Shown here piece by piece: positions 1 to 64,000 of a stretch of 64,000 nt of DNA. Made by a program: the position numbers and the translations under genes. Numbering within the stretch: the first letter of the stretch is position 1; the number at the start of each line of letters is the position of its first letter. The stretch lies in IMG/VR virus record IMGVR_UViG_3300045993_000425, positions 1 to 64,000 of that record, one strand, 5' to 3'. Source of the stretch: a virus. The notes under the pieces were generated by a model. It did no database searches and had not been told where the DNA came from. It saw only the letters and a program-made list of their open reading frames with translations.

Positions 1-2
1 TT

Positions 3-953
3 ATCAGTCCTAACATCGTCCTGGTGGCTTGCGGCTTCTCTGAGCAGGTGCTGGGGACACTCGCTCTGAACTTCCGAGAGGCATCCACCATCAACGTCCT
101 GCCCCTCGTCGCACCTCGCTCGATCTTGCAAAATGGCGAGGCTCACTTCCTAGACGATGTTGCAGCCATCACCGGGTCCGAGGTGCTTGACCCACTCCAG
201 AGGACTTTCGATGTCGCTCGCATCCCTGGAGAGTCTGAATCAGACATCGGTCAGGTTGACGGCTTTGAGATGCTGCGCTTCCGCTCGACCATCTTCGGAT
301 ACGCCGACGAAGACCTCATCGTCGACCGGGCAGAGGTGCTCGAGGGTATGGCCAAGTCTGCCATCTCTGAGCTAGATGGGCGAGCTCTTCGGGAGCGACT
401 TGCTGCTCTGACTGGTGGAATCGCGAAGTTGTGGGTCATCGGCTCAAGTCAGGGTGAACTGCGAGAGCGCAAAGACCGTGCTGATGACGCTGTTCGGGCT
501 GTCCAGGGTGCAATGAAGTCTGGAGTACTGCCTGGTGGAGGATGGACTCTGGTTCGTTTGTATGATGCGCTCAGAACATCATTCACCAAGGGCACCCCCG
601 AGATGGACGTTCTAGGACGCTCACTTATTGAGCCGGTGCGGCTGCTCCTATCGAACACTGGCATGACCTACGACGTGGCTTCTCATATCATCGAGGATAT
701 GCTGGGCGACCAGAATCAGGTCTGGGATGCCGCCAAGAGAATCTGGATCCCGGCTTTCGATGGAGAAATCCTCGACTCCGTTCCTGCCGTTCGCGAGGCT
801 ATCCGAAACAGCATCTCAATCGCCAGCCTTCTTGGGACTCTAGGAGGAGTAGTTGTCTTTGGGCGAGACATCGAACTAGAGCGTCGGGAGGCGCAGCAGA
901 CGAACCAGTACCTCCGCGAAACGAACACGTTCGATGTCAATGAGAGGGCTTGA
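3..953 (+). CDS. groEL: Phage chaperonin GroEL-like (5'-truncated by window edge)
   Basis: LRERLAALTGGIAKLWV..ELRERKDRADDAVRAVQGAMKSGVLPGGG and GEILDSVPAVREAIRNSISIASLL match GroEL C-terminal equatorial motifs; frame is open from position 3. Confidence 0.92.
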   Translation: MSPNIVLVACGFSEQVLGTLALNFREASTINVLPLVAPRSILQNGEAHFLDDVAAITGSEVLDPLQRTFDVARIPGESESDIGQVDGFEMLRFRSTIFGYADEDLIVDRAEVLEGMAKSAISELDGRALRERLAALTGGIAKLWVIGSSQGELRERKDRADDAVRAVQGAMKSGVLPGGGWTLVRLYDALRTSFTKGTPEMDVLGRSLIEPVRLLLSNTGMTYDVASHIIEDMLGDQNQVWDAAKRIWIPAFDGEILDSVPAVREAIRNSISIASLLGTLGGVVVFGRDIELERREAQQTNQYLRETNTFDVNERA

Positions 954-1210
954 TGCCGGTATTTCACTTCCACTGCCCAGAATGCCGTGAGTTCGACAGC
1001 CAACTCCTGACATCCTCTCGCTCAAGAGGTATCATTCGCTGCCGGAAGACACCTGGGTGTGGCGGGCAGCTAGTTAGGCAGCCGGTGCCACCCCAGATGA
1101 TCCACAGCGAGGTCATCGACAACGGCATCATGCAGCGAAGGGTCGAGCGACCCATCGACCAAGAGAAGTTGCTGCATGAGAGAGCCCAGAAAGACTACAA
1201 GGTCCCGTAG
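953..1210 (+). CDS. FmdB-like zinc-ribbon protein
   Basis: MPVFHFHCPEC...RCRKTPGCGGQLVRQ; ATG overlaps the groEL TGA. Confidence 0.65.
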   Translation: MPVFHFHCPECREFDSQLLTSSRSRGIIRCRKTPGCGGQLVRQPVPPQMIHSEVIDNGIMQRRVERPIDQEKLLHERAQKDYKVP

Positions 1211-1449
1211 AGGGTCTTGCAGCCGTACTGGAAGGCCTCCTTCTCCTCCTCGGTGAAGACGCTGAAGTCGGTGGGCTTCGAGTAGTAGGCAAACCCCTTG
1301 AAGAGTTCGACCTGCTTCAGCTGCCAATCGAGAGCCTTCTTGGCATTTCCGACGAGCTCGACCGTCTTGGGCAGCCCCTCGGTGCTGCGAACGATGTGCA
1401 GCTTCCGACCACCACCACGCCAGTTCGTGTCCTCGACCAGGAACTTCAT
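1195..1449 (-). CDS. Hypothetical early protein (84 aa)
   Basis: ATG at 1449 with RBS AAGGGAGG and a near-consensus sigma70 promoter upstream; GC3-rich codons. Confidence 0.75.
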   Translation of the reverse strand: MKFLVEDTNWRGGGRKLHIVRSTEGLPKTVELVGNAKKALDWQLKQVELFKGFAYYSKPTDFSVFTEEEKEAFQYGCKTLYGTL

Positions 1450-1475
1450 GTTGCCTCCCTTGTTGGTGTGAACCG

Positions 1476-1504
1476 ATACTATCAAAGCGACTCGCTGGTG
1501 TCAA
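1476..1504 (-). promoter_or_regulatory. Sigma70-type promoter TTGACA-N17-TAGTAT with TGn extension
   Basis: Reverse strand reads TTGACA ccagcgagtcgctttga TAGTAT. Confidence 0.85.
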
Positions 1505-1506
1505 CG

Positions 1507-1516
1507 CTTTGTGCTT
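1507..1516 (+). promoter_or_regulatory. CTTTGTGCTT box (putative middle promoter), copy 1
   Basis: Identical 10-mer also at 4009 and 14204, each at a gene boundary; ATG at 1526. Confidence 0.6.
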
Positions 1517-1525
1517 ACTGTCAGC

Positions 1526-3697
1526 ATGGCTACACCTACGCTCAAGCTGACCAGCCTCAATCTCCGAAGCTTCCGCAGTTTCGTAGATGAGCAGCAGCTA
1601 GACCTACCCGACAGTGGTCTTCACCTCATCGAGGCCCCATCTGGCAGCGGCAAGTCAGGCCTAGTAGAGGCCATCGCCTATGCTCTTGACTACAGCCAGT
1701 GGCCAGCGACCGAGCATCAGTCGTGGGGGTGGCTGACAGACCAACCGATGGAGGTGCGGCTGGATTTTGAGGTCAAGGGGGAGAAGGCGAAGATCGTCAG
1801 GGGCAAGAGGCCGCTTCTGTCTGTAGGGGATGTGAGCCTGACCAGCGCAAGCACCATCGCCAAGAAACTCCCAGAGGTTCTCGGGTGTCGCCCAGAGGTA
1901 CTGCGAGCCCTTACCTATCGTCCACAGAGGCAAACAGGTCTTTTTCTTAGCTTTTCTGACTCGGAGAAGAAGTCGTTCCTGACCGAACTCCTGAGGATGG
2001 GAGATGTCGAGAGGGAGATCGAGGTTCTAGGGAAGACGCTGACGGAGCTGGATAAGAAGCTCGCTGTGTCGAAGGCCAAGCTAGACCAGGCAAGGTCCGC
2101 TCTACCGCTCTCTCCTCCAACTGAACCTAAACCTGCGGATGTTGGCGGATTGCAGCTACGGGTGTCTTCTGCGCTAAAGCTGATCGGCGGACTCACGGTC
2201 GAGGTGTCTACTGTCAGAACCAACATCTTGTCTCTGGAGGAACAGAGGAAAGATAGATTGGTCGAGTGTGAGAAGCTGCTCTTGCCTGCCATCACCGAGG
2301 CTCAGGTCAAGCTGGAGGCTGCCAAGCTGACCTCATTTGAGGCTGACCCTGCTGTGGCTCAGATGGCTGGGGTCATCAAGAAGCGAATTGCGTATATCCA
2401 GTCTGGTATGTCCAAACTCAAGGAGCAGCACCTCTCCAATGTAAAGAGTGCCCAGACCCAGCTGGAGAGCATCAGAAAGGAGGTATGGAAGGCGAACACC
2501 ATCATCAAGGGGCTCCCCACTCTCCAGCAGCAGATGGCTGTCCTAGTCAACGACATCCAGGCCATCGAGACAGCTATCTGCTCCACCTGTCGGCAGACTT
2601 GGGTTGGTCTGGACGCAGAGAGAACCCTCGCTGACAAGAATAGGAAGCTAGAGGTACTCGAGAAGCAGGTAGCCGATGCCGAGAGCCAGAAAGAAGCCGT
2701 AGAGGCTCTCCTGGCCGAGCAGAAGGGGCAAGAAGACCTCCTGAAGGCACTCATGGAGGAAGACCCGATTCCTGAGAAGTTCAAGGTGGGGGAGGCTGAC
2801 CAGCAGCGTCTACTGATGGAGCTTGAGCAGACTCAGAAGTCGGAGCAGAGGGAGTTTGAGGTCACCAAGAAGGCTAACCTTGCGGTGCTAGAGGCGGAAC
2901 TTCAGGCTGCCAAGACCTCCAGGCAGATGCACCTAGCCAAGCTGTCAGTTCAGACTGAGGAGGAGGCAGCGGCAGCTAAGGCATTGGTCGACAAGAGAGC
3001 GGAACTCCAGACTGCGAACTCAGAGCATTCCGCAGCCTTAGCCGAACTGTCCTCGGTTCAACGTCTAGATGAGCAAGCCGCGAAGAGTTACGACGCAAGT
3101 CTCATGTCGTACCTCAAGCTCTCTGCTGCCGTAGACATCGCCAGCGATGAGGTGGGTGCCGTCAAGGTTTCCTATGGCTGGAACGAAGATGCTCATCAGC
3201 TTCTCAAGCAATTCCTCGGACTTGTGTTCGATGAAACGCTCCAACTAATCGCTGCCAGGGCAACAGAGCTTCTCTTTGGCATCCCTAACGTGCAGGGTAT
3301 GACCATCGGGTTCCTTTCTGAGAGGGAAACAAAGTCGGGATCGGTCAAGCAGGAGATCAAGCCTGTCATCAGCAAAGATGGGCACCAAGTATCTTTCCGC
3401 TCTGGGTGCTCTGGAGGGCAGCAGGCTGTCATTGAGCTCGCGGTAGACCTCTCCCTAGCGGAGGTCATCTCTGAGCGCACCGGAATCCTCCCAGGTTGGC
3501 TAGTCCTCGATGAGCCTTTCGATGGGCTGGGGGCGGCTGATAAAGAGGCGGCAATGGCTGTCCTGGCTCGCTCCGCTGCCGACAGGGCCATCTATGTCAT
3601 CGACCACAGCGCGGAGGTAAAGGAGTCCTTCGACTCTGTTCTGACCATCATCCACCAGGACAATAGGTCACACATCAAGTCAGAGAGCCTCCGATGA
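1526..3697 (+). CDS. SbcC/Rad50/T4 gp46-like recombination ATPase
   Basis: LRSFRSF, Walker A APSGSGKS, long coiled coil with CSTC zinc hook, signature SGGQ, Walker B LVLDEPF, IDH. Confidence 0.92.
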   Translation: MATPTLKLTSLNLRSFRSFVDEQQLDLPDSGLHLIEAPSGSGKSGLVEAIAYALDYSQWPATEHQSWGWLTDQPMEVRLDFEVKGEKAKIVRGKRPLLSVGDVSLTSASTIAKKLPEVLGCRPEVLRALTYRPQRQTGLFLSFSDSEKKSFLTELLRMGDVEREIEVLGKTLTELDKKLAVSKAKLDQARSALPLSPPTEPKPADVGGLQLRVSSALKLIGGLTVEVSTVRTNILSLEEQRKDRLVECEKLLLPAITEAQVKLEAAKLTSFEADPAVAQMAGVIKKRIAYIQSGMSKLKEQHLSNVKSAQTQLESIRKEVWKANTIIKGLPTLQQQMAVLVNDIQAIETAICSTCRQTWVGLDAERTLADKNRKLEVLEKQVADAESQKEAVEALLAEQKGQEDLLKALMEEDPIPEKFKVGEADQQRLLMELEQTQKSEQREFEVTKKANLAVLEAELQAAKTSRQMHLAKLSVQTEEEAAAAKALVDKRAELQTANSEHSAALAELSSVQRLDEQAAKSYDASLMSYLKLSAAVDIASDEVGAVKVSYGWNEDAHQLLKQFLGLVFDETLQLIAARATELLFGIPNVQGMTIGFLSERETKSGSVKQEIKPVISKDGHQVSFRSGCSGGQQAVIELAVDLSLAEVISERTGILPGWLVLDEPFDGLGAADKEAAMAVLARSAADRAIYVIDHSAEVKESFDSVLTIIHQDNRSHIKSESLR

Positions 3698-4008: not shown

Positions 4009-4018
4009 CTTTGTGCTT
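4009..4018 (+). promoter_or_regulatory. CTTTGTGCTT box, copy 2
   Basis: Immediately after the stop at 4008, upstream of the 4056 gene. Confidence 0.6.
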
Positions 4019-4055
4019 TATCAGTCCCGAACCCCAACCAGCACAAGGACACCAG

Positions 4056-4331: not shown

Positions 4332-4343
4332 CCCAAGCTAGAT

Positions 4344-4988: not shown

Positions 4989-5032
4989 TCATCTGTTAGT
5001 TTCTAGTCTTCCCATTATCGGAGTCACTACAC

Positions 5033-7538: not shown

Positions 7539-7555
7539 TTGTGCTACATCGTGAT

Positions 7556-8320: not shown

Positions 8321-8833
8321 ATGAAACTCAAGGACGCGACAAAGAACCTCACCCAGTTCACTGCCAAGCTAGCTCAGGAGGTGCAGGACGAACTGAATAA
8401 CATCAACGCCAAAATCAATCGCATTGAGGCTGTCATTTCAGCCGTAGTGAACGTGATTGGCGAGAGCAGCGTTAACACAGAGCTTGCTGCTTTGCGGGAT
8501 GGCGCAGAGGCCAAGAATGTCGAGAAGCAGACAGCCAACGTAAAGTACCTCATCGACAGCAAGGTACTTCTGCCAATCGACACCGTAGCCATGAACAGCT
8601 TCGTTGTTGGCGTGGAGAAACTGGACGAAGGCAATGTCGAGCACCGGGTGCAGTTTGAAGTCGCTGGTCTGAATCCCGAGGTGTCTACCAAGGTGGTCGG
8701 AAGCAAGGTGGGCGACACCATCAAAAACGCCAAGTCCAGCCTGGTGATCAGGGAGATTTACGATATCGACGCTGCCCAGGCTGAGAAGACCATCAAGCCG
8801 CCTCTCGATGCTGCACCGGCTGCTCAGGCCTAA
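8321..8833 (+). CDS. GreA/Rnk-like transcription factor (divergent)
   Basis: N-terminal coiled coil with GESSVNTELAALR (cf. GDLxENAEYHAAR); C-terminal DTVAMNSFV...VVGSKVGDTI...IREI (cf. Gre/Rnk C-domain). Confidence 0.55.
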   Translation: MKLKDATKNLTQFTAKLAQEVQDELNNINAKINRIEAVISAVVNVIGESSVNTELAALRDGAEAKNVEKQTANVKYLIDSKVLLPIDTVAMNSFVVGVEKLDEGNVEHRVQFEVAGLNPEVSTKVVGSKVGDTIKNAKSSLVIREIYDIDAAQAEKTIKPPLDAAPAAQA

Positions 8834-8835: not shown

Positions 8836-10122
8836 ATGTCTAGCCCCCTGACTCGCCAGATCGCTAACTCTATCGCAGAGGCCTGCGTGGCACTTCATGT
8901 GCCTATCAGGTCTCTGACAGCTACTGACTACTGCCAGTGGCTGAAGGCGAACAAGGGCTTAGGGGAAGAAGACCTAAAGCTTGTCAAGCAGCACATGTCT
9001 AGGCTGGGTGGGTTCGTAAAGATTCGCGATGCTTTTTATGTTGCGAGCCCGACAGAGCAGCTGGTCGAGAGTGTAGAGTTGGCGAACCTAGCCAAGCTCA
9101 GTAGGCAGACAGTTACCAGCCTCGCGAACGACGAAATGTTCCTCAGTCGCCTAGATGGACTGCTCCGCAACGTATGGCGAGATGTAGGTTCCTTGCCTAA
9201 GTCCAGTTACATTGGCAAGAAGCAGAGGGCCAAGACCAAGCGAGCCCTGGTTATCGCCCTCTCAGACTTGCACTTCGGTAGCAGCCTAGACCCAAGAGAA
9301 CTTCCCTACAAGTTCGACTTTGAGGAAGAAGCCAGTGCTCTAGCTTATGTCGTCAAGAGCGCATGCGACTTCAAGCTAGACCATCGAGACGAGACAGAAG
9401 CCGTTGTTTGGCTAGGTGGTGACATTATCGCTGGTAAAATCCACGACCGCCAGGCTGGTCGCCCTGTCGCAGAGCAATTCGCTGATGCCGTCCACCTACT
9501 AGTCCATGCGGTCTGGGTGCTAGCTGGGTCATTCAAGAAGGTCACGATCTACTGCTCTACCGGCAATCATGATCGGGACGAGAGCCGCCATGCTGATCGT
9601 GCATTTGATGGCAAGTGGGACTCTCGAGCAACCCAGATTTATTATGCCGTCAAGATGTCTACAAAGCACCTGAGCAATGTCAGTTTCAACATTCCTCGCA
9701 CTCCTCATGTTGAGTGGGAGCTCTTCGGGCATCGCTTCTACGCTACGCATGGTGACACTGGGCTAGCTGTAGGTAATCCCTCCCGGTCCATCAACATCGG
9801 CGGTATCGAGAATCAGATGAGGGCTATCCAGACAGCCGAGGCTCAGGCAGGTCGCAAGCCGTTCTCTGTGTTCCTGAGTGGCCATGTACACCAGGGGCTG
9901 CACCTACCTCTCCCTACCGGCGACCTAGTCATCAACCCAGCCCTCATCCCAAATGATAGTTATGCCCGAGGGGTTGGTTTCGTCCAGAGTCGCCCAGGAC
10001 AGGTCATGTTTGAGGTCACAGCAGAGCATGCTGTGGGTGACCTTCGTTTTCACCATGTAACCGAACAGGTGCTAGCGGACAAGAGTCTGCATCAGCTGAT
10101 CGTGCCCTTCAAGGACTTCTAA
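8836..10122 (+). CDS. Calcineurin-like metallophosphoesterase
   Basis: All five motifs present: SDLHFG, GGDII, GNHDR, THGD, GHVH. Confidence 0.88.
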   Translation: MSSPLTRQIANSIAEACVALHVPIRSLTATDYCQWLKANKGLGEEDLKLVKQHMSRLGGFVKIRDAFYVASPTEQLVESVELANLAKLSRQTVTSLANDEMFLSRLDGLLRNVWRDVGSLPKSSYIGKKQRAKTKRALVIALSDLHFGSSLDPRELPYKFDFEEEASALAYVVKSACDFKLDHRDETEAVVWLGGDIIAGKIHDRQAGRPVAEQFADAVHLLVHAVWVLAGSFKKVTIYCSTGNHDRDESRHADRAFDGKWDSRATQIYYAVKMSTKHLSNVSFNIPRTPHVEWELFGHRFYATHGDTGLAVGNPSRSINIGGIENQMRAIQTAEAQAGRKPFSVFLSGHVHQGLHLPLPTGDLVINPALIPNDSYARGVGFVQSRPGQVMFEVTAEHAVGDLRFHHVTEQVLADKSLHQLIVPFKDF

Positions 10123-10361
10123 TGGCTGACCCACGACTCGAAACAGATCCTGACTTCATTCTCCTCAAGCGGTATGACTACTCGCTGAACAAGCTGCTCG
10201 AAAAGTTCCCGAATGGAGTGCCAGATGAGGTAGCTGGCTCTGCTCTCGGATGTTCAGCGGAGGAGATCGAGGAGATCTACCAGGGCATCGTAGGACGCAT
10301 CAAGAAAGGCGTAGAGAAGGCAGGCCTGAAACGGAGACGTTCTGCTAGTCGTAAGGCATGA
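10122..10361 (+). CDS. Small HTH protein resembling sigma70 region 4
   Basis: GVPDEVAGSALGCSAEEIEEIYQGIVGRIKK pattern; translationally coupled on both sides. Confidence 0.45.
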   Translation: MADPRLETDPDFILLKRYDYSLNKLLEKFPNGVPDEVAGSALGCSAEEIEEIYQGIVGRIKKGVEKAGLKRRRSASRKA

Positions 10362-14203: not shown

Positions 14204-14213
14204 CTTTGTGCTT
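14204..14213 (+). promoter_or_regulatory. CTTTGTGCTT box, copy 3
   Basis: Directly after the dnaE stop, upstream of ATG 14235. Confidence 0.6.
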
Positions 14214-18107: not shown

Positions 18108-19148
18108 TTGGCCTACTCGTCCGTCGACCCTGCCGCTCTCCATGAACTGGTAGAGCGGCACGGGTTCCAGAAGCAGAATAAGCGCAGCTGGTTGCTCGAG
18201 TGTCCTCGGTGCAGCCAGCTTAAGCTTTATGTAGAGAAGTCGACAGGGCGCTCTCGCTGCATGAAGTGCGGCCAGGACTTCTCTGGCAGGGCCGACAAGA
18301 TCTTGGCAGAGGTCTACGGTCTACCTCGCCAGGAGCTAGCCTCCATCCTGTACGATGGAGTCTCGGCTGGCTCCGACATCTCTGACAAGCTAGACTTTGC
18401 TGACCACTGGGACGAATACGAGACAGACGAGATCATCTCCGACATCATCGAGATCCCTCCTGCGATCGATTGGGGTCCAGATGCCCTTGAGCTAGACCAT
18501 AAAGCCGCGCGTGCCGGTCGTGAGTACCTAGCTAAAAGAGGCATCAGTGTCACTCTGGCCTCTGAGTACGGAATCCGGTATGACCCAAGCATCAGGAGGG
18601 TTCTATTTCCCGTCGTCGTTGAGGGACAGGTTCGGGGCTGGCAGGCTAGATCCATCGACCCGACTGAAGTCTTGGTTGGCGAGCGCATCGTCCGCATACC
18701 CAAGATCATCACGACCGGCCAAGTAGGTGGCAAGGCCGTCATGCATCAGGACCGCCTGGTGGGGGCTCGCAAGGCTATCATCGTGGAGGGACCTGTCGAT
18801 GCCATCAAGTGCGACCTGCTCTGGAGGCGAGATGGGGTGGCCGTCACGGCTACGATGGGCAAGAGCATCACCAGTGACCAGATCGATATCTACCGCAGGA
18901 GCAGCGTCAAAGACCTATACCTGGGTCTAGATGATGATGCAGCAGACAAGATCTCCCAGCTCGCCTCCCAGCTCGCTGACCGCTTCACTATTTATCGCCT
19001 TGAGGCCCCTGCCGGTCGGGAAGACCTCGGTGACGCAGAACTGGAGGAAGTTTGGCTTCAGTATCAGGCCACCTCCCCCCTCAGAGTAGGAAGCCCGATC
19101 CTGAGCCGATTCGCTGATCCTTTCGACTACGAACGACAGATCATCTAG
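18108..19148 (+). CDS. DNA primase (Zn finger + TOPRIM)
   Basis: CPRC..CMKC, YLAKRGI, RVLFPV, GWQAR, IIVEGPVD, LGLDDD. Confidence 0.9.
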   Translation: MAYSSVDPAALHELVERHGFQKQNKRSWLLECPRCSQLKLYVEKSTGRSRCMKCGQDFSGRADKILAEVYGLPRQELASILYDGVSAGSDISDKLDFADHWDEYETDEIISDIIEIPPAIDWGPDALELDHKAARAGREYLAKRGISVTLASEYGIRYDPSIRRVLFPVVVEGQVRGWQARSIDPTEVLVGERIVRIPKIITTGQVGGKAVMHQDRLVGARKAIIVEGPVDAIKCDLLWRRDGVAVTATMGKSITSDQIDIYRRSSVKDLYLGLDDDAADKISQLASQLADRFTIYRLEAPAGREDLGDAELEEVWLQYQATSPLRVGSPILSRFADPFDYERQII

Positions 19149-20161
19149 CGCCGCTTGCCTCGAAAGGACAGCCGCTTCTTCTCTTGGGCTGCGGCTTCAG
19201 TCCATGCCTCATCGGCGCACCGGCACGTCTCGCACTTCTGGCAGTGCTCCTTCATCCTGCGCTTGGCCTCATCTTGCGCCTCCTTCGGATGAGAGGTTCC
19301 GTTGATGACACCAGACATCACCTCAACCCATTGATGGTGGGTCATAGAGGACAGAAGCCCCTCCTGCTTCTCGATCTGCTCCACCCTTCTGGAGTTCCTG
19401 TTCTTCTCCTGCGCCACAGCCTCTGCATCGGCAAGCTGGACAGGTGCATGGGCAGGAGGTGTGTAGTTCGGCTCCACCCAGCTATTGCCAGAGGAGATCT
19501 CGGCCCCGCAGACGGGCTTCCCGATGGTTGCGGACAACTCAATACCCTGAGACTCAAAGGAGATATTCCGCAGATATCTTCTAGTGACCGATGCCCAGCG
19601 GGCGAACTCTTGCCTCAAGAAAAGGGTCAGGTTTCCTCCTGACTTGTGGGCGTCCTCGAGGTCGCGATGCCGATTCAGATAGATGGTCAAGTAGACCAGA
19701 GCGATGGACTTCATGTCTCCCTCATCGGAGGAGATCTCGTCCAGGATGTGCCGGTAGCGGTAAGCTGCTCGCCTAGCCTCCCTATTGATGATGGCCATCT
19801 GCTTCTGGATGAGCCAAGCAGGAGGATTGGGAGTCCTCTCAAAAGGAGTGAGCCGCATCGAGGTGGCCTCGTAGTCAGCCACCCTCGCTCGCACAGTGCC
19901 GGTTCCATTGCGGAAACCGTTGGGGCGACCAAACCCCAGCTTCTCGGTCAGCTTCCACATCTCAGAGATAACCTGCTCCACATCCTTGGAGTTAAGCTTC
20001 TTCTCATCCAGCCTGAGGCATCCATCCCTTCCCTTGCCTCCGACCTGAACGAGCTTGTCTTCCACTACTAGAGAGTTAGGAGTGGGTCCGACCTGAACCC
20101 TTAGGCCCCAGCTTTCAGCCCAGCTGTAGGCTACAGTAGTCGCCTTGTAGTCCTGTTCCAC
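19145..20161 (-). CDS. Putative divergent phage sigma factor (domain-2-like) with C-terminal HxxxCxxC
   Basis: LIQKQMAIINREARRAAYRY...DEGDMKSIALVYL...LTLFLRQEFARW resembles sigma regions 2.1-2.4; GTG start after AAAGGAGG. Confidence 0.5.
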   Translation of the reverse strand: MEQDYKATTVAYSWAESWGLRVQVGPTPNSLVVEDKLVQVGGKGRDGCLRLDEKKLNSKDVEQVISEMWKLTEKLGFGRPNGFRNGTGTVRARVADYEATSMRLTPFERTPNPPAWLIQKQMAIINREARRAAYRYRHILDEISSDEGDMKSIALVYLTIYLNRHRDLEDAHKSGGNLTLFLRQEFARWASVTRRYLRNISFESQGIELSATIGKPVCGAEISSGNSWVEPNYTPPAHAPVQLADAEAVAQEKNRNSRRVEQIEKQEGLLSSMTHHQWVEVMSGVINGTSHPKEAQDEAKRRMKEHCQKCETCRCADEAWTEAAAQEKKRLSFRGKRR

Positions 20162-28550: not shown

Positions 28551-28557
28551 AGATTGC
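28551..28557 (-). promoter_or_regulatory. AATCT late-promoter motif before the fibre gene
   Basis: gcAATCTtaag in the intergenic gap; one of 8-9 copies. Confidence 0.7.
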
Positions 28558-37631: not shown

Positions 37632-37638
37632 AGATTAC
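37632..37638 (-). promoter_or_regulatory. AATCT late-promoter motif before baseplate J
   Basis: gtAATCTAag. Confidence 0.7.
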
Positions 37639-46272: not shown

Positions 46273-46767
46273 CTATGCCTTTCGGATCATGGGTCCGAGC
46301 GGGTCTGAGCTCAGGAACCTGTCATCTTTTAGATTGCGACCGAACTGCATATCGATTAGGTTTTCTTCATTCTCGGGCAGGACCAATTTGGGCTTCTTCG
46401 ATTTGTCGGCACCTGCCTTCAGCTTTGCCGACTTCTCTTTGTCTGCCTTCACGTCTTTGTTCAGCTGCTCGAGGAAGCGGTCGTCGGCTTCTTCTGCTGC
46501 CTTCTCTGCTGCCAGACGCTTCTCTCGCTCTTCTTCGCTCTCTGAGAGCACCTCTGCGTACTCAGACCTCTGCTGCTCAGGCATCTCATCGAAGATGTGC
46601 TCAAACCAGGCTTGCAGAACCTGCTCGACAGGAAGTTCGGAGACTACATGTAGGGGTGTGTGAAACGTGACACTGTACTGCCTGCAAACGTGACGCAGCC
46701 ATGCTTGACGGTCGGGATTAAGGACCGCCAGCATGGCTCGACACTCGATCGCCCGATCGAGGTCCAA
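46273..46767 (-). CDS. Tail assembly chaperone (downstream part)
   Basis: RQYSVTFHTPLHVVSELP motif; synteny; start codon uncertain. Confidence 0.6.
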   Translation of the reverse strand: MDLDRAIECRAMLAVLNPDRQAWLRHVCRQYSVTFHTPLHVVSELPVEQVLQAWFEHIFDEMPEQQRSEYAEVLSESEEEREKRLAAEKAAEEADDRFLEQLNKDVKADKEKSAKLKAGADKSKKPKLVLPENEENLIDMQFGRNLKDDRFLSSDPLGPMIRKA

Positions 46768-47241: not shown

Positions 47242-47248
47242 AGATTGC
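47242..47248 (-). promoter_or_regulatory. AATCT late-promoter motif before the chaperone/tape-measure operon
   Basis: gcAATCTAca. Confidence 0.7.
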
Positions 47249-47399
47249 CACCGTGCTAGAGGGTTCCAATGATGATGTAGTGTCTTTCCATGAGTTAGGC
47301 TCAGAATAGGGAGGGGTCGTGCCACAAGCTGTGGGTTCGGTCGATGGTTCGCAGTTGGTGGAAGTCTTCTGGTTGCTAGACTTCTGCTACTGAGCCACC

Positions 47400-48703: not shown

Positions 48704-48732
48704 TTGCCATCTGATAGTCTCTCTGATACCTT
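48704..48732 (+). promoter_or_regulatory. Sigma70-type promoter TTGCCA-N17-TACCTT (leaderless)
   Basis: ATG 48739 lies 7 nt after the -10 hexamer; no RBS. Confidence 0.75.
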
Positions 48733-51193: not shown

Positions 51194-51222
51194 TCGTCTG
51201 CTTGGTAGTGCTATAGGATGGC

Positions 51223-55841: not shown

Positions 55842-55862
55842 CTGAGTCTCCTATCGACAGTT

Positions 55863-55869
55863 AGATTAC
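55863..55869 (-). promoter_or_regulatory. AATCT late-promoter motif before the sheath
   Basis: gtAATCTAac. Confidence 0.7.
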
Positions 55870-55881
55870 TGTCAAGACTGC

Positions 55882-57507: not shown

Positions 57508-57526
57508 GTTTGGTAGATTACCGGCG

Positions 57527-58270: not shown

Positions 58271-58278
58271 AATGTCTC

Positions 58279-58593: not shown

Positions 58594-58610
58594 AGGTTCC
58601 TAGATTGCCT

Positions 58611-61600
58611 TTAGCAGCCCTGGTTTGGGTCTTGCTTTACCTGCCAGACATCGTCATCCAGCTGCCTAATGAACGACTCATCTAGTAGGTCGAAGAGAAG
58701 CTCCTCGGTCCATCCAGAAGCAATGAAGAGAACATCCGTAGGCCTCCAAGGCTGCTGGTAGACCTGTAGGTCGGTGCGGCTAGCCCTCCCCATCGTCCCG
58801 ACAAACTGGACAAGTGCGCTGCCGCTACCGGATCGTCCAGAGAATCCGAATCCTCGGGGCTCAATAATGCCCGAGCGACCAGCAAAACTGCCCTGGAGGA
58901 TCGGCAAGCTGGGTAGAGTGGTCGAAGACCTAGCCGCCAGGGCATTCCCTACCAGACCCGATGCGGTAGTAGAGCGCACCTGCGTGCTGTAAGCCTCGAG
59001 TACAGTGGAGCCTGACCGACCCTGCTTGCCTGCAACCTGGGGCACGGCAATGGTGGACCTACCAGATGTCCTACTCAGGTTGACAGTCGTCGAGCTAGAC
59101 CTGAAGGAAGCGGTCGAGGCTCCAGGGAGCACTCGACCAGACCTGGCGGCTGTCCCTAGTAGTTGATCAATTGTGTGAGGTAACGTCACACCAGAGCGAC
59201 CAGAAATGGTTGGTTTGTCGACGTTCGCGATTCGCGAACTGCGAACGGCACCCTCAACGGCCTGGAGAACCGTTCCAGACCGACCAGCTAGCCGGATCGC
59301 ATCAGGAAGGACTGTTCCAGAGCGTGGATAGACCCCAGTGGCTTGTGGCTGGGTCGTGGAAGCTCGACGCAGGCTGGCTAGGTTCAGGAGAGAGGCTAGA
59401 CCAGAGCGGCCAGCCATCTTGACTGCCGTGGCCAGAGCGGAGGAGCTACGGCCAGCCATCTGGGTTGCGATCAGATTCGCTGTCCCAGACCTGCCTGGGG
59501 CACCTGATAGGTCTGGCAGAGCTCCACCAGACCGGCCCGACATCAAAACCTTCTGGAGCGATGAGGTAGCCGAGCGTGCGGTGGTCTGGGAGTGCCAAGG
59601 CAAGGCAGAGGCGAACCCGGCTCGACCGGAGATCTTTGTGGCCTCAGGAGTGACAGCCGCAGACCTGAGGGAGCTAGCTAACCTCTCTGGCGGGATGCCA
59701 GCCTCGACCTTACCAGACCGTGCATTCTGCCTCTGGGTGGCGATATTGATCCACTCAGACGTGGTCACCCCTCCAGCCTCGGCCTGGATCAGCATTCGAG
59801 AGGTGGTCTGAGCTGAAGCGGACCTCCTCGAGCCATAGCTAGTCGTCAGGTAGAGCTGAATGGTTGCGCTACCGAGCTGGGTCGTTGGGCCTTCACTGGT
59901 TGCCAGCAGGATGAAGCCTTGACGCAGAGCGGCAGAACCAGAGCGACCACCTAGAGTGATAGCCAGACCAGAGTCTAGGCCTACTACTGTGGCTACCGCT
60001 GGTACTGCACCGACCTCCTGCCGAAGAACCGTATCACTGGAAGAGATGGTTGCGGTGGCTGCAACGACACCCTGCTCTGGCTTGGTGATGGTGTCGGAGG
60101 CGATTGCAGTAGCGGTTGCGGGGGTCGAACCGAACTCCCCCAGCACCAGACCATCGCTACCTGCGACCTGGGGAACCCCTACAGCAGAGACGAGGTCAAC
60201 GAAGTGTCCTACATCGGTGCTGTTGACTACTGCCTGAGCTGCTACGGTCAGGGTGTCGCCAACGATCTTGTCGTCTACTCCGACGATAGTCGCAGTAGAT
60301 GAAGCACTCTCTGCACCAGCTAGGATAGCTAGGTCGACCCCAGTGGCCAGAGCGTCTACCGCGATGTAGTTTCGTTCGTTCCTGGTGACCTGCTCGACGA
60401 CCGAGATGTTCGCTGCTGCTCCGACCGTCTCAGAGCCTGAAAGGGTTGCGACCTCGGCGTTGCTGACACCTACCGTCGCTGCGTTGGTCGCTGTCTCTGC
60501 TTCAGAAAGAGCGTCGAGCGAAGCGGTGGCAGCCTGGGCACCAACCGCTCCAGCCTCGCCTAGAATCCGACTGTCGACCCCAGCGACCGAAACAGACGCG
60601 GCTTCTGTTCCAGAGTCTACAAAGTTGCCTACATCTAAGGCGACAGCGGTGAAGGTAGGAGCGGCTGAAGCGTGCTCGCCATAGCCGACGCTGCTGAAGT
60701 CATCAGCTACGGCCAGGAACGAGGCAGCATTGGTCCCGAACTCGTGCTCATCTAGCCTGTCGGGACCAGAAACTGAGGCCTGACCAGAGACAGTGCCCGA
60801 CTCAGCCCCAGAAATGGCCTCCAGGCCCACCAGACTGAACGTAGCGGCTGTGGTGCCTGTCTCGGTCAGGGCCGTCTGATCGATGCCGCTAGAGGCTCCT
60901 GAAGCCCCTACAGACCCAACATCGACTCCGACTAGGATATCTGACCCGGTCGGAGAGGTTGACGCAGCTACAGATGCCGTCTCGCCTCGCTGGCTGGCAT
61001 CGCTGGCTGCCTGGGATGAGACGGCAGAAACAGTTCCCGTCTCGATGAATCCCTTGATGTCCGTCGCAGAGACAGCAAAGGTAGCTGCGTCGGTGCCTGT
61101 TTCAGCCAGAGTCGTGGCATCTACAGCCGTCTGGTTCGAGGAGGCTGCTACCGATGCCGGCTCGGAGGAAACCTGCGCGTCCGTAGCTGCTGCTGTAGCT
61201 ACAGCCGAAACCGTTCCCGACTCAGGCAGGACCCTGTTATCGGTCGCTGCAATGGTGGCGGTCGCTGCGTCAGTTCCCGACTCGACCAGAGCTAGAGCGT
61301 CGGCAGCTGAAGTGGCCCCAGAGGCCGGTCCAGTTCCTGATTCTCCACCCACACCAGCGTCGGTCGCTGCCGTTGAGCCAGAAGCTGCTACCGTTCCCGA
61401 CTCACCCAGTACTCTAGAGTCAACTCCCGCTACCGAGACGGTTGCGGCATTAGTGCCGGTTTCGTTCTCGAGGTAGCTGTCAGAGGCGACCACAGCGACA
61501 GAGGCGGCATTGGTTCCAACTTCCACCTGAACAACTGCATCGACTCCAGTGACTACACCACCAGAGGCGAGAACCGTGCCGGTTTCGTTGAAGACCCCAG

Positions 61601-63569
61601 AGGTCGACTTGACATCAGTGCCTAGAGCCGTGACATCAGCAGCCTCTGTCCCGGCCTCGACCAGGGTCAGGCTGTCGGCCCCCGCGATAGACCCAGTGGC
61701 CCCATTTGTCCCAGTCTCTGGGAAGGTTCCCTGCTCACTCGTGGTGCTAGAGGCGACGGCTGCAACAGTTCCTGCCTCGGTCAGGACAAGCTGGTCGGAC
61801 GAGGAGGTCGCTGAAGTCCCAGATACTATCCCCGACTCAACAGAGACGAGAGCATCGGCTGTCGCCTGGCTGCTTGTCGCTGCTGTCGACCCTGACTCAG
61901 CAGCCACCAGGGCATCGGACCCTGAGATAGCCCCAGAGGCAGAGACCGTTCCAGCCTCGACAGCTACCAGGACATCTGTTCCAGAGACTACGCCACCAGA
62001 AGCAAGTACCGTACCTACTTCGTTGAATGCCCCAGCGGTAGATTTGGTGTCGGTCCCGAGAGCCGTGACATCAGCAGCCTCGGTCCCGGTTTCAGTCAGA
62101 ACCTCTGCATCGCTCGAGGAGATAGCTCCAGATGCCGAAATCGTCCCAGACTCAGAGAGCAGGAGAGTGTCGGATGAAGTGGTAGCTCCAGTAGCTGAAA
62201 CCGTCCCAGATTCAGGTAGAAGGAGGCTGTCAGCGGCTGATACAGTTCCAGAAGCAGCCGTGGTTCCTGTTTCGCCCTCGAGGACCGAGTCTAGGGTCGC
62301 TTGAGTAGAACTGGCTCCTGTGGATCCTGACTCTGCTGCCTGACCGGCATCGCTACCGGCTGTAGTCCAGGCAGCCGACACAGTGCCAGAATCAGCCCAA
62401 GCCAGAGCTTCAGCACCAGCTACGGCACCAGAGGCTGCTACTGTGCCTGTTTCGTTCTCGGTTAGGCTCTCAGATGACGCTACCGCAACTGTCGCGGCTG
62501 TAGTCCCTGACTCGGCACCCTGAAGGGCATCCGAGCCTACACCTGTCCCATCAGCTAGGACAGTGCCGGTTTCGTTGAAGACACCTCCCGCAGTCTTGGT
62601 GTCAGTTGCTCCAGGTGTCCCTACGCTTGCTGCTACGGTTCCTGTTTCCGCGTATGCAGAGGCATCGGTGCCAGCCGAGGAGGCAGAGCCACCTACAGTA
62701 GAGGTTTCTGCTCCGACCTGGGCATCGCTAGCTGCCGTCGCCCCAGAAGCGGCAACCGTCTCAGTTCCAGCATTGGCTGCTGCGTCAGTTGCGGCAGAGC
62801 TCGAGGAACCACCAACCGTTCCGCTTTCACCTTGCTGGCCTGCGTCCGAACTGGTTCCCGTATTGCTCGCAGCAACTGTCCCTGACTCGCCCCAGTTTGT
62901 TGAGTCAGAAGAAGCGGTTGCTGCTGTAGCTGAATCGGTTCCTGACTCAACGACAAGGAACGAGTCGCTACCGGCTACCGCACCAGTGGCGGCTGTTGTT
63001 CCTGACTCAGCCCACTGCAAGGCTTCAGAGCCGACAATGGTCGCAGAAGCCCCTACAGTTCCTGATTCTACCCGTAATGTGGCATCGTTGGCTGCTACCG
63101 TCGCGGCTGCTGCGACAGTCCCCGTCTCGACCTCTACGAAGATGTCTGTGGCCGCCACCGTAGCTGCGCCAGGGACTGTTCCTGACTCAGCGTCTAGGAT
63201 GGCATCGAGAGCACTAGCCGCAAAAGCTGCGCCAGTACTACCTGAATCTGACCCAACTAAGGCACCTGAGTCGGTGATCCCTGCTGTTGCGGCTACGGTC
63301 CCAGACTCGCCCCTTACAGAGGCATCGGTTCCAGCCGATGAGGCGGAACCAGCTACAGTCCCAGACTCAGCAATGATGAATTGGTCGCTACCTGCTACGG
63401 AAGCCGCTGCTGATGCGCTACCTGATTCGCCATAGACAACGGCATCAGACGCTGCAACAGAAGCTGTCGCCGCTACTGAGCCTGGCTCTGAGTAGTTAAC
63501 GCCACCGCCAGCTGTACCAGCTAGGATGACAGCGGTAAATATGCCGCTTCTTTTAGGAAAGAAAGCCAA
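58611..63569 (-). CDS. 1652-aa repetitive virion filament/fibre protein
   Basis: About 60 acidic 20-aa E(S/T)GT..A....(S/T)D repeats, then about 20 basic RSG/RSS repeats; TTG start after GAGGAGG; AATCT at 63588-63592. Confidence 0.8.
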   Translation of the reverse strand: MAFFPKRSGIFTAVILAGTAGGGVNYSEPGSVAATASVAASDAVVYGESGSASAAASVAGSDQFIIAESGTVAGSASSAGTDASVRGESGTVAATAGITDSGALVGSDSGSTGAAFAASALDAILDAESGTVPGAATVAATDIFVEVETGTVAAAATVAANDATLRVESGTVGASATIVGSEALQWAESGTTAATGAVAGSDSFLVVESGTDSATAATASSDSTNWGESGTVAASNTGTSSDAGQQGESGTVGGSSSSAATDAAANAGTETVAASGATAASDAQVGAETSTVGGSASSAGTDASAYAETGTVAASVGTPGATDTKTAGGVFNETGTVLADGTGVGSDALQGAESGTTAATVAVASSESLTENETGTVAASGAVAGAEALAWADSGTVSAAWTTAGSDAGQAAESGSTGASSTQATLDSVLEGETGTTAASGTVSAADSLLLPESGTVSATGATTSSDTLLLSESGTISASGAISSSDAEVLTETGTEAADVTALGTDTKSTAGAFNEVGTVLASGGVVSGTDVLVAVEAGTVSASGAISGSDALVAAESGSTAATSSQATADALVSVESGIVSGTSATSSSDQLVLTEAGTVAAVASSTTSEQGTFPETGTNGATGSIAGADSLTLVEAGTEAADVTALGTDVKSTSGVFNETGTVLASGGVVTGVDAVVQVEVGTNAASVAVVASDSYLENETGTNAATVSVAGVDSRVLGESGTVAASGSTAATDAGVGGESGTGPASGATSAADALALVESGTDAATATIAATDNRVLPESGTVSAVATAAATDAQVSSEPASVAASSNQTAVDATTLAETGTDAATFAVSATDIKGFIETGTVSAVSSQAASDASQRGETASVAASTSPTGSDILVGVDVGSVGASGASSGIDQTALTETGTTAATFSLVGLEAISGAESGTVSGQASVSGPDRLDEHEFGTNAASFLAVADDFSSVGYGEHASAAPTFTAVALDVGNFVDSGTEAASVSVAGVDSRILGEAGAVGAQAATASLDALSEAETATNAATVGVSNAEVATLSGSETVGAAANISVVEQVTRNERNYIAVDALATGVDLAILAGAESASSTATIVGVDDKIVGDTLTVAAQAVVNSTDVGHFVDLVSAVGVPQVAGSDGLVLGEFGSTPATATAIASDTITKPEQGVVAATATISSSDTVLRQEVGAVPAVATVVGLDSGLAITLGGRSGSAALRQGFILLATSEGPTTQLGSATIQLYLTTSYGSRRSASAQTTSRMLIQAEAGGVTTSEWINIATQRQNARSGKVEAGIPPERLASSLRSAAVTPEATKISGRAGFASALPWHSQTTARSATSSLQKVLMSGRSGGALPDLSGAPGRSGTANLIATQMAGRSSSALATAVKMAGRSGLASLLNLASLRRASTTQPQATGVYPRSGTVLPDAIRLAGRSGTVLQAVEGAVRSSRIANVDKPTISGRSGVTLPHTIDQLLGTAARSGRVLPGASTASFRSSSTTVNLSRTSGRSTIAVPQVAGKQGRSGSTVLEAYSTQVRSTTASGLVGNALAARSSTTLPSLPILQGSFAGRSGIIEPRGFGFSGRSGSGSALVQFVGTMGRASRTDLQVYQQPWRPTDVLFIASGWTEELLFDLLDESFIRQLDDDVWQVKQDPNQGC

Positions 63570-63599
63570 CCGTGCCTCCTCTCCGAAAGATTAGGCTGC

Positions 63600-63998
63600 T
63601 TACGGACCTGCTTTAATCTCAATGGCTACCGTAGCCCACGGGTTCGTCGTGGGTGCTGACAATCCGCCGACGACCGTACCTGCGCTGGTAGCGGGGGTTG
63701 TGACTGTTTCGCAGGCATACGTCCACTGACCCGTGTCTTGGTCGGTCACCAGCAGGGTATTGCTCGATTCCGCAGTAGGAGGAGCACCTGCGTTGTGGTA
63801 TTTTGTGACCGTCAAAACGACAGATCCCGCCGCACTGACCGGCGTAGATAGCGACATGGTTCCCGTGGTGCCATTCGCGGAGTTATAGTTACCAAGAGAT
63901 GTGCTTGCGTTGTCGAAGATGTAGACTGATCCTTCACCCTTGAATGAGCTTCCGAATGTGACAACTTCTGCCGTTAGCGGCGAGCCGCCTACTAGCGC
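63600..63998 (-). CDS. Virion-associated beta-rich protein (5'-truncated by window edge)
   Basis: Frame open to the window end; ends WATVAIEIKAGP. Confidence 0.65.
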   Translation of the reverse strand, partial: ALVGGSPLTAEVVTFGSSFKGEGSVYIFDNASTSLGNYNSANGTTGTMSLSTPVSAAGSVVLTVTKYHNAGAPPTAESSNTLLVTDQDTGQWTYACETVTTPATSAGTVVGGLSAPTTNPWATVAIEIKAGP

Positions 63999-64000
63999 GG

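What the first reader, a model, noticed from the sequence alone, without database searches (positions are those of the whole stretch)
1..64000. Three-tier phage transcription programme readable from sequence: sigma70 promoters, a TGTGCT box, and AATCT, with candidate trans-factors
Seen: three distinct upstream motifs partition by gene class (early island, replication genes, structural genes). Seen: three ORFs resemble RNAP-binding factors (Gre-like 8321, sigma4-like 10122, sigma2-like plus HxxxCxxC 19145), and no phage RNAP subunit is in the window. Established: T4 and SPO1 remodel host RNAP in comparable cascades. Inference: a lineage-specific host-RNAP take-over system whose late motif differs from T4 (TATAAATA) and phiKZ (TATG). 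I do not know it to be described, but could not search.
Basis: partly seen in the sequence, partly recalled or inferred. Interest (0 to 1): 0.85.

Follow-up and report, generated by a model that had tools for sequence, protein, structure and literature searches.

The report
Promoter classes of an Mx1-like myxophage
A 167-kb relative of Myxococcus phage Mx1 carries three kinds of promoter-like signal, and its late signal (GYAATCT) is most likely read by host RNA polymerase carrying a phage-encoded, truncated sigma factor whose gene lies outside the window.

Summary
The window is the first 64 kb of a complete 166.8-kb myovirus genome. Its closest isolate is Myxococcus phage Mx1 (DnaE 45% identical).

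The motifs are real:
- G(C/T)AATCT lies 5-80 nt upstream of late and structural gene starts (25 of 88 copies, 3.9 expected, P 5e-14). It is also enriched in Mx1 (P 7e-9) and recurs at late gene heads in metagenomic relatives of 39-68% GC.
- TGTGCT(A/T) precedes replication genes (9 of 28 copies, P 1e-8). It is a lineage-specific form of a -35-less extended -10 box; relatives carry other variants at the same gene heads.
- Full TTGACA-N17-TGnTAGTAT promoters exist, but only one lies in the window.
- Both phage-specific classes include starts at leaderless spacing.

No phage RNA polymerase was found anywhere in the genome. Its profile matches RpoD at E 3e-9, its fold matches SigA, and it lacks the region 4.2 helix-turn-helix.

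The three in-window ORFs:
- 8321: a coiled coil plus an FKBP/Gre-CTD-like domain (weak).
- 10122: a small helix-turn-helix protein with sigma-region-4 leads only.
- 19145: a conserved HxxxCxxC motif, but no sigma region 2 signal.

This is a new variant of phage-sigma-driven late transcription. Other first-stage notes on this genome had also flagged the motif.

The parts
1476..1504 (-). Full sigma70-type promoter TTGACA-N17-TGATAGTAT ahead of the small ORF 1195-1449. It is the only full-consensus early-type promoter in the window.
1510..1516 (+). TGTGCTT box 10 nt before the ATG of the SbcC-like gene (1526-3697), at leaderless spacing. It sits back to back with the early promoter.
4012..4018 (+). 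TGTGCTT box 38 nt before ORF 4056-4331.
7540..7546 (+). TGTGCTA box 10 nt before an in-frame ATG at 7556 of the unknown gene ending at 8305, at leaderless spacing.
14207..14213 (+). TGTGCTT box 22 nt before ORF 14235-15026 (the gene after DnaE), which has a Shine-Dalgarno sequence.
4992..5002 (+). TCTGTTAGTTT, a -35-less extended -10-like box ahead of the class II ribonucleotide reductase gene.
47382..47394 (+). TTCTGCTACTGAG, an extended -10-like box ending 5 nt before the ATG of ORF 47400-47924. This is the head of the plus-strand island.
48710..48720 (+). TCTGATAGTCT, an extended -10 box ahead of ORF 48739-48960.
51209..51217 (+). TGCTATAGG box 5 nt before the ATG of ORF 51223-51705, at leaderless spacing.
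28551..28556 (-). Late motif agCAATCTt ahead of the 1033-aa tail gene 25398-28499.
37632..37637 (-). Late motif cgTAATCTa ahead of the 2231-aa baseplate-J/Kelch gene.
46331..46336 (-). Late motif cgCAATCTa ahead of the 915-aa gene 43523-46270.
47242..47247 (-). Late motif ggCAATCTa ahead of gene 46771-47166. Its Mx1 orthologue also carries AATCT upstream.
55863..55868 (-). Late motif agTAATCTa ahead of the tail sheath gene 54048-55841.
58602..58607 (-). Late motif ggCAATCTa 8 nt before the ATG of ORF 58279-58593, at leaderless spacing.
63588..63593 (-). Late motif ccTAATCTt ahead of the 1652-aa gene 58611-63569.
8321..8833 (+). 170-aa protein with a helical hairpin (residues 2-79) and an FKBP/Gre-CTD-like beta domain (83-149). 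It is conserved next to the SbcD-like gene in all relatives.
10122..10361 (+). 79-aa conserved helix-turn-helix-like protein whose stop overlaps the DnaE start. It is 53% identical to an unannotated Mx1 ORF.
19145..20161 (-). 338-aa protein with invariant H275, H306 and C310 and nearly invariant C313 (HxxxCxxC) at its C-terminus. It has its own TGATAGTTT/TAGTAT boxes upstream.

Best explanation
The phage has no polymerase of its own and runs on host RNA polymerase, using three promoter-like signal classes.

(1) Full host-type promoters (TTGACA, 17 nt, TGnTAGTAT) drive the small-gene blocks. One lies in the window and about 16 lie elsewhere.

(2) Extended -10 boxes without a -35 element head the replication genes and the helicase-sigma operon. 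In this lineage they read TGTG-C-T(A/T), with relatives such as TCTGnTAG. They often sit so close to the ATG that the mRNA would be leaderless. Host sigma-A holoenzyme could use them without a -35 contact.

(3) A single -10-like element, G(C/T)AATCT(A/T), heads the tail, baseplate, head and packaging operons. It keeps the A at -11 and the T at -7. I infer that it is read by host core polymerase carrying the phage sigma70-family factor encoded at 161,891-163,003. That factor has regions 1.2 to 4.1 but no region 4.2 helix-turn-helix, so it cannot read a -35 element.

Shown here: the motifs, their positions and their conservation; the identity and truncation of the sigma; the absence of detectable polymerase genes. 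Inferred: the timing of the classes, which holoenzyme reads which class, and any role for ORFs 8321, 10122 and 19145.
For: Motif statistics in this genome: YAATCT P 5e-14, GYAATCT P 2e-17, TGTGCTW P 1e-8.

Spacing fits -10 elements. Five late sites have the ATG 7-8 nt after AATCT, and six TGTGCT sites have it 10-11 nt after. Mx1 shows the same 6-7 nt cluster.

Conservation: in Mx1, 17 of 56 YAATCTW copies lie upstream of starts (3.2 expected, P 7e-9). The reverse-complement control is not significant. The sites include the portal, sheath, baseplate and tailspike genes. The same GCAATCT or TAATCT occurs at gene heads in metagenomic relatives of 39-68% GC whose sigma is only 31-57% identical. 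The extended -10 boxes at the same replication-gene heads differ by lineage (TGTTTTAGTAGTGC, TGATATAGTA, TTCGCTATAG).

Sigma: the family has more than 150 members, and JGI names several of them sigma. Its profile hits RpoD/SigA at E 3e-9 across regions 2-4.1. The AF2 model has pLDDT 84.6, and all 34 Foldseek hits at E <= 0.001 are sigma chains of RNA polymerase holoenzyme entries. The only PF04542 signal in the genome lies in this gene. Family members end 3-11 residues after the LLRLKGV motif. In the alignment, the positions of sigma70 W433, W434, Q437 and T440 are replaced.

The helicase-sigma operon has a TTCTGCTACTAGT box upstream.

No polymerase: PF00562 and PF00623 are absent, no DxDGD motif lies in any large ORF, and the giant ORFs carry unrelated domains.
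Against: - No transcript data exist. The temporal order and the sigma-to-motif assignment are inferences from co-occurrence.
- In relatives, AATCT also precedes the ribonucleotide reductase gene and the ORF 8321 homologue, so the motif is not strictly 'structural'.
- The sigma scores below Pfam thresholds (11.7 bits).
- The phage sigma could instead read the extended -10 class.
- Two giant ORFs (1130 and 1320 aa) and the 1652-aa window ORF have no domain hits, so a very divergent polymerase is not strictly excluded.
- The PF00940 search had no positive control.
Confidence: 0.6

Rival explanations
1. The phage sigma reads the lineage-specific extended -10 class (TGTGCTW and its variants). AATCT is read by host polymerase redirected by another factor: a host alternative sigma, or a phage adaptor such as ORF 19145 or ORF 10122.
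For: The extended -10 boxes vary between lineages, as a co-evolving phage factor would predict. The sigma keeps a region 3 that could contact a TG extension. ORF 19145 and ORF 10122 are conserved across the family and unexplained.
Against: The invariant AATCT fits an invariant phage-encoded reader better. The sigma's -10 recognition residues are invariant within the family and differ from sigma70. The helicase-sigma operon itself carries an extended -10 box in most relatives, so a sigma that read that class would be needed for its own first expression.
Confidence: 0.2
2. AATCT is not a promoter element. It is an RNA-level or protein-binding signal at operon heads, such as a processing site, an anti-termination site, or an operator for a late regulator.
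For: The motif is short. No -35 partner or transcript evidence exists. At the sheath gene the motif sits inside an inverted repeat.
Against: The motif has a fixed orientation. Its spacing to the ATG falls into two groups, a 7-8 nt cluster with no room for a ribosome site and a 17-75 nt group. It resembles a -10 hexamer, with A at position 2 and T at position 6.
Confidence: 0.08
3. A highly divergent phage RNA polymerase, hidden among the unannotated giant proteins, transcribes the AATCT class.
For: ORFs of 1652, 1320, 1130, 1037 and 915 aa have no family hits. Short single-element late promoters are typical of phage polymerases such as those of phiKZ and AR9.
Against: No DxDGD motif lies in any large ORF. 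There are no beta or beta-prime hits. The giant ORFs with hits are virion polyproteins carrying enzymes unrelated to transcription. A genuine sigma factor is present.
Confidence: 0.05

Closest known systems
Bacillus phage SPO1 cascade (host sigma-A, then gp28, then gp33/gp34)
   Same: No phage polymerase. Host-type early promoters are followed by phage-encoded sigma-family factors with their own promoter consensus (established knowledge; PMC13401047 abstract).
   Different: Only one sigma-family gene was detected here. It is a long sigma with regions 1.2 to 4.1, and its putative promoter is a single -10-like element. No homology to gp28 or gp34 was tested.
T4 late transcription (gp55, gp33, gp45 clamp; TATAAATA at -10)
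   Same: Late promoters consist of a -10-like element only, read by a sigma-family protein that lacks the -35-reading region 4 (established knowledge; PMC2988021).
   Different: The motif is GYAATCTW, not TATAAATA. The sigma is about 360 aa with regions 1.2, 2, 3 and 4.1, whereas gp55 is minimal. No gp33 or clamp coupling was identified. The polymerase is of the DnaE type.
phiEco32 / 7-11 phage sigma (gp36)
   Same: A phage-encoded sigma-like protein switches host polymerase to middle and late promoters (PMC8948821 abstract).
   Different: Those phages are small podoviruses, and their consensus is different. The relationship to this sigma family was not tested.
Extended -10 (TGn) promoters of bacterial sigma-70/sigma-A
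   Same: The TGTG-C-T(A/T) and TCTGnTAG boxes have a TG one base upstream of a T(A/T)-initiated hexamer and no -35 element. Relatives show near-consensus TGnTATAGT.
   Different: In this phage only the first two hexamer positions are conserved. Whether host sigma-A alone suffices is unknown.
Myxococcus phage Mx1 (OR576727.2)
   Same: About 58 shared, syntenic genes. Mx1 has the same sigma gene after the helicase, the same late motif, and homologues of all three window ORFs.
   Different: Protein identities are only 22-55%. Mx1 lacks the TGTGCT box (0 of 27 copies upstream of starts). The genome announcement reports no promoter or transcription analysis (PMC10720576).

Membership tests
sigma70-family sigma factor (gene at 161,891-163,003, outside the window) | Region 2 (core binding and -10 recognition) detectable by sequence | tested here: met
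   The family profile matches RpoD/SigA chains at E 3e-9 across regions 2 to 4.1. Three sigma PHROGs hit the same residues weakly. Pfam PF04542 alone scores only 11.7 bits, below its cut-off.
sigma70-family sigma factor (gene at 161,891-163,003, outside the window) | Sigma fold over the whole length | tested here: met
   The AF2 model has pLDDT 84.6. All 34 Foldseek PDB hits at E <= 0.001 are sigma chains of RNA polymerase holoenzyme entries (best E 1.8e-5, about 350 aligned columns).
sigma70-family sigma factor (gene at 161,891-163,003, outside the window) | Region 4.2 helix-turn-helix that reads the -35 element | tested here: not met
   The proteins end 3-11 residues after the LLRLKGV motif, which aligns with sigma70 VLRMRFGI. 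PF04545 gives no hit anywhere in the genome. The protein is therefore a truncated member.
sigma70-family sigma factor (gene at 161,891-163,003, outside the window) | Binds core RNA polymerase and directs initiation | not testable with these tools
   Needs biochemistry.
Gre factors (GreA/GreB/Gfh1), for ORF 8321-8833 | N-terminal antiparallel coiled coil followed by a C-terminal globular domain, about 160 aa in all | tested here: met
   AF2 model at pLDDT 80.5: helices 2-46 and 48-79, then a beta domain at 83-149.
Gre factors (GreA/GreB/Gfh1), for ORF 8321-8833 | C-terminal domain specifically of the Gre type | tested here: inconclusive
   VIA-align gives GreA 1grj Z 8.0 (rmsd 2.7, 62 aligned), Gfh1 Z 7.2 and GreB Z 6.9. 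The trigger-factor PPIase domain scores higher (Z 9.2), and SlyD/FKBP domains score 7-8. Foldseek gives GreA E 0.02.
Gre factors (GreA/GreB/Gfh1), for ORF 8321-8833 | Sequence membership (Pfam GreA_GreB; profile against solved Gre structures) | tested here: not met
   PF01272 gives no hit in the genome. There are no Pfam or PHROG hits. The 8-sequence profile finds no Gre chain at E <= 10.
Gre factors (GreA/GreB/Gfh1), for ORF 8321-8833 | Conserved acidic residues at the coiled-coil tip | tested here: inconclusive
   G47 is invariant at the hairpin tip and is followed by one or two D/E residues in every homologue, but at shifting positions.
sigma region 4 domain (PF04545), for ORF 10122-10361 | Region 4 helix-turn-helix detectable by profile | tested here: inconclusive
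   Pfam Sigma70_r4 hits 1 of 7 homologues at E 0.046. The profile finds no sigma chain in the PDB at E <= 10. Atlas features place it near viral 74-aa clusters in which 83% of members carry PF04545 (score 0.93, 179 shared features). A structure row gives TM 0.53, but the Atlas model of this protein is poor, at pLDDT 0.50.
sigma region 2, for ORF 19145-20161 | Region 2 detectable by profile | tested here: not met
   hhalign against the phage sigma family gives probability 0.1%. PF04542 hits only the other gene. The 35-sequence profile finds no sigma in the PDB. The only lead is an Atlas cluster in which 15% of members carry PF04542, sharing 129 features, which is low.
zinc-binding anti-sigma (ZAS, zf-HC2 PF13490), for ORF 19145-20161 | HxxxCxxC with an upstream fourth ligand | tested here: met
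   H275, H306 and C310 are invariant and C313 is at least 90% conserved in 35 homologues.
zinc-binding anti-sigma (ZAS, zf-HC2 PF13490), for ORF 19145-20161 | Pfam membership above threshold, and the anti-sigma domain at the N-terminus | tested here: not met
   zf-HC2 scores 15.7-17 bits against a cut-off of 22.2, in a few homologues only, and not in this protein. The motif is C-terminal here.
zinc-binding anti-sigma (ZAS, zf-HC2 PF13490), for ORF 19145-20161 | Binds a sigma factor | not testable with these tools
   Needs a pull-down or a two-hybrid test.
phage multisubunit or single-subunit RNA polymerase | Beta/beta-prime domains, the DxDGD metal motif, or a T7-like domain | tested here: not met
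   PF00562 and PF00623 give no hit at E <= 10, with controls positive. No DxDGD lies in a large ORF. PF00940 gives no hit, but its control was silent.

The most novel reading that the evidence does not exclude
The family's sigma is functionally bipartite. The long factor stops exactly at the end of region 4.1. The highly conserved 64-79-aa protein encoded just upstream of DnaE (ORF 10122) begins with the same LLKRFG-type motif and continues as a helix-turn-helix. It would supply a region-4-like module in trans, as a flap-binding or DNA-reading partner. ORF 19145 (zinc HxxxCxxC) and ORF 8321 (Gre-shaped) would be further polymerase-directed factors. Together these would make a multi-protein take-over kit specific to Mx1-like phages.
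Probability: 0.12. Interest if true: 0.75.

Novelty: new variant of a known kind. Interest (0 to 1): 0.5.

Why it matters
[quoted passage not shown] The papers I could search hold no promoter or transcription analysis for it.

This work gives a concrete, testable regulatory map for the whole group:
- a conserved late element, GYAATCTW;
- a truncated sigma that probably reads it;
- lineage-specific extended -10 boxes;
- frequent leaderless starts.

The map would help annotate operons in these 160-180-kb phages. It could supply orthogonal promoter/sigma pairs for myxobacterial genetics. It also adds a sigma that ends at region 4.1 to the known range of phage-encoded sigma factors.

Tried and rejected
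- Megablast of 14 kb against phage records found no match. The relative Mx1 was found only by protein search.
- Single-protein scans of viral contigs with the SbcD-like protein and with the sigma found nothing.
- A word-based homologue search for ORF 8321 found only itself. Homologues were obtained through synteny instead.
- BLASTP of ORF 19145 against the Mx1 annotated sigma showed no similarity. The Mx1 sigma matches a different gene, outside the window.
- The profile of ORF 8321 against the PDB found nothing significant.
- The profile of ORF 19145 against the PDB returned only a spurious hit to alpha-haemoglobin stabilising protein.
- The profile of ORF 10122 against the PDB returned designed repeat proteins and SANT/Myb domains at non-significant E-values.
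- hhalign of ORF 10122 and of ORF 19145 against the sigma family found no relationship.
- The one complex-prediction job, phage sigma with ORF 19145, returned 'no answer' (score 0.00, controls not run). It says nothing either way.
- A permissive count of motifs followed by any long open frame was uninformative, because internal ATG codons were counted as starts. It was replaced by a codon-usage gene map.
- ATCTA repeats upstream of the sigma genes in relatives lie inside the helicase coding sequence. I dismissed them as promoter evidence.
Full report
**What the window is.** The window is bases 1-64,000 of a 166,843-bp virus record that CheckV rates as complete. Its GC content is 56.6%.
- It encodes a contractile tail: a sheath gene at 54048-55841 and a 2231-aa baseplate-J/Kelch protein at 30875-37570.
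- It also encodes a replication and recombination block on the plus strand: an SbcC-like protein, a class II ribonucleotide reductase, an SbcD-like protein, a DnaE-type polymerase, a RecA-like protein, a primase and a DnaB helicase.
- There is no nucleotide-level relative among phage records.
- By protein search, the only close isolate is Myxococcus phage Mx1. Its DnaE is 45% identical over the full length. About 58 ORFs are shared in conserved order.
- The record is linearised inside the GroEL gene.

**The late motif.** An unbiased k-mer count on the 60 nt upstream of ORFs puts AATCT first among 5-mers (21 vs 5.4 expected) and GCAATCT first among 7-mers (11 vs 0.8). I then built a codon-usage gene map.
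- On that map, 25 of the 88 YAATCT copies in the genome lie 5-80 nt upstream of a start on the same strand. The expected number is 3.9 (P 5e-14). For GYAATCT the count is 19 of 34 (P 2e-17).
- The seven window sites all face minus-strand tail and baseplate genes.
- Distances to the start codon fall into two groups. One is a tight cluster at 7-8 nt, which leaves no room for a ribosome-binding site. The other spans 17-75 nt and usually includes a GGAG-type site. This is what a -10 hexamer that sometimes gives leaderless mRNA would look like.
- C/TAATCT keeps the A at position 2 and the T at position 6 of TATAAT.

**Conservation of the late motif.** In Mx1, proteins are only 22-55% identical to this phage's.
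- There, 17 of 56 YAATCTW copies lie upstream of starts (3.2 expected, P 7e-9). They show the same 6-7 nt cluster. The reverse-complement control is not significant.
- The Mx1 sites include the portal, sheath, baseplate, Kelch fibre and tailspike genes.
- In ten metagenomic loci from relatives, the same GCAATCT or TAATCT recurs at gene heads. This includes a relative of 39% GC whose sigma is 31% identical.
- In several relatives the motif also precedes the ribonucleotide reductase gene and the ORF 8321 homologue. It is therefore not strictly a structural-gene mark.

**The TGTGCT box.** TGTGCT is not over-represented in the genome as a whole (74 copies). However, 9 of the 28 TGTGCT(A/T) copies lie just upstream of starts (0.7 expected, P 1e-8).
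- The window sites precede the SbcC-like gene, ORF 4056, the unknown gene at 7556 and the gene after DnaE.
- Six sites genome-wide have the ATG exactly 10-11 nt after the box.
- Read as TGTG-C-T(A/T)NNNN, the box is an extended -10 element with no -35 partner.
- At the same gene heads, relatives carry other extended -10 variants: TGTTTTAGTAGTGC, TGCTATAGTAGTGC, TGATATAGTA, TTCGCTATAG and TGTTCTT. Only one relative shares TGTGCTA. Mx1 has no enrichment.
- So the position of the box is conserved while its sequence drifts.
- Other window genes use sibling boxes: TCTGTTAGTTT (reductase), TTCTGCTACTGAG (ORF 47400), TGCTATAGG (ORF 51223) and TCTGATAGTCT (ORF 48739).

**Host-type promoters.** Seventeen sites match TTGAC(A/G/C)-N17-TG(A/G/C)TAGTAT or TGATAGTCT. 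They are concentrated at 84-107 kb and 140-146 kb. Only one lies in the window, at 1476-1504 on the minus strand, back to back with the SbcC TGTGCT box. The window's plus-strand island (47.4-53.5 kb) carries -35-less boxes, and a generic sigma70 scan there is at chance level.

**Trans-factors: the sigma.**
- No beta or beta-prime domains occur anywhere in the genome, with controls positive.
- No DxDGD motif lies in any large ORF.
- No T7-like domain was found, but that control was silent.
- The giant ORFs carry NUDIX/GNAT, radical SAM/DnaJ zinc-finger and kinase-like domains, and one is a portal with an intein.
- Mx1 annotates a 'putative sigma factor' after its helicase. The homologue here lies at 161,891-163,003, outside the window. 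It is not ORF 19145.
- This protein belongs to a family of more than 150 proteins, found on contigs of up to 181 kb.
- The family profile matches RpoD/SigA at E 3e-9 from region 2 through region 4.1.
- The AF2 model has pLDDT 84.6, and all 34 Foldseek hits at E <= 0.001 are sigma chains of RNA polymerase holoenzyme entries.
- The genome's only PF04542 signal is in this gene.
- Nearly all family members end 3-11 residues after LLRLKGV, which aligns with VLRMRFGI of sigma70. The region 4.2 helix-turn-helix is therefore missing.
- In the same alignment, the positions of sigma70 W433, W434, Q437 and T440 hold other residues, while F200 and R201 are nearly invariant in the family.
- A sigma with no -35 reader and altered -10 contacts fits a single-element promoter with an unusual hexamer. 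This link is an inference from co-occurrence and was not shown.
- The helicase-sigma operon is preceded by an extended -10 type box here and in most relatives. This fits host polymerase making the sigma first.

**ORF 8321.** This 170-aa ORF has no family hits. A word search finds only itself.
- Synteny next to the SbcD-like gene gave seven homologues.
- The model (pLDDT 80.5) is a helical hairpin plus a beta domain. That is the Gre shape.
- However, the C-terminal domain matches the trigger-factor PPIase domain (Z 9.2) at least as well as GreA (Z 8.0), Gfh1 or GreB.
- The best whole-protein matches are uncharacterised viral proteins.

**ORF 10122.** This 79-aa ORF is one of the best-conserved proteins in the family: 53% identity to an unannotated Mx1 ORF. 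Its stop overlaps the DnaE start.
- Profile searches find nothing significant.
- Language-model features and a low-confidence Atlas model place it near small viral proteins that carry Sigma70_r4.
- It is a helix-turn-helix protein. A replisome role is as likely as a transcription role.

**ORF 19145.** This 338-aa ORF has 114 homologues. H275, H306 and C310 are invariant, and C313 is nearly so.
- zf-HC2 hits are below threshold and occur only in a few homologues.
- No sigma region 2 signal was found.

**Literature and prior notes.** The Mx1 genome announcement contains nothing on promoters or transcription. A 2026 preprint on myxobacterial viruses does not treat promoters. Other first-stage notes on this genome had independently flagged GCAATCT, the leaderless spacing and the extended -10 boxes. 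I checked these claims myself.

**Verdict.** It is wrong, or at best unproven, about which proteins do the work. The mechanism belongs to a known kind, phage-sigma-directed late transcription as in SPO1, T4 and phiEco32. It differs in having a new consensus and a sigma truncated at region 4.1.

Noticed in passing
record 85,871-86,210 and 86,380-86,464; 91,255-91,340; 96,173-96,267 (L007 1871-2210, 2380-2464, 7255-7340, 12173-12267): The phage carries a tmRNA gene (tag peptide VNSVSTRGA) and three tRNA genes (Tyr-GTA, Leu-CAA, Ala-TGC). All lie outside the window, and the window itself has no tRNA.
   Followed up: partly
record 149,197-153,984 (L010 5197-9984, minus) and 158,380-161,595 (L011 2380-5595, minus): The portal gene holds an intein with a LAGLIDADG domain. 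A 1071-aa C5 cytosine methylase also carries Hint/intein-splicing signatures.
   Followed up: no
record 116,203-128,422 (L024 7703-19922, minus): Two giant late ORFs (1317 and 2797 aa) combine NUDIX, GNAT, radical SAM and DnaJ-type zinc-finger domains. They look like virion polyproteins carrying enzymes.
   Followed up: no
record 164,750-164,930 (L011 8750-8930): An AT-rich stretch with tandem and palindromic AGATCT/TAGATC units, flanked by G- and C-runs. It lies between the helicase-sigma operon and the HTH gene and may be an origin or packaging region. GATC-containing words are also the most enriched upstream k-mers in Mx1.
   Followed up: no
window 24-953 and record 166,088-166,843: The record starts inside the GroEL-like gene. 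Its N-terminal part lies at the other end of the record, so the sequence is circularly permuted or was cut there. Relatives have GroEL intact next to the helicase-sigma operon.
   Followed up: partly
window 55,850-55,881: At the sheath gene the late motif sits inside an inverted repeat (GACAGT-AATCTA-ACTGTC), with a TTGACA just upstream. It may be a regulatory hairpin or operator.
   Followed up: no
L017 12050-16970: In one relative the DnaE gene is split into 735-aa and 689-aa ORFs with a 108-aa ORF between them. This suggests an intron or a homing-endonuclease insertion.
   Followed up: no
L014-L019 (e.g. L015 11283-11675), compared with window 10122: The metagenomic relatives L014-L019 and Mx1 have an extra 108-145-aa ORF between the SbcD-like gene and the ORF 10122 homologue. 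It is missing in this genome.
   Followed up: no
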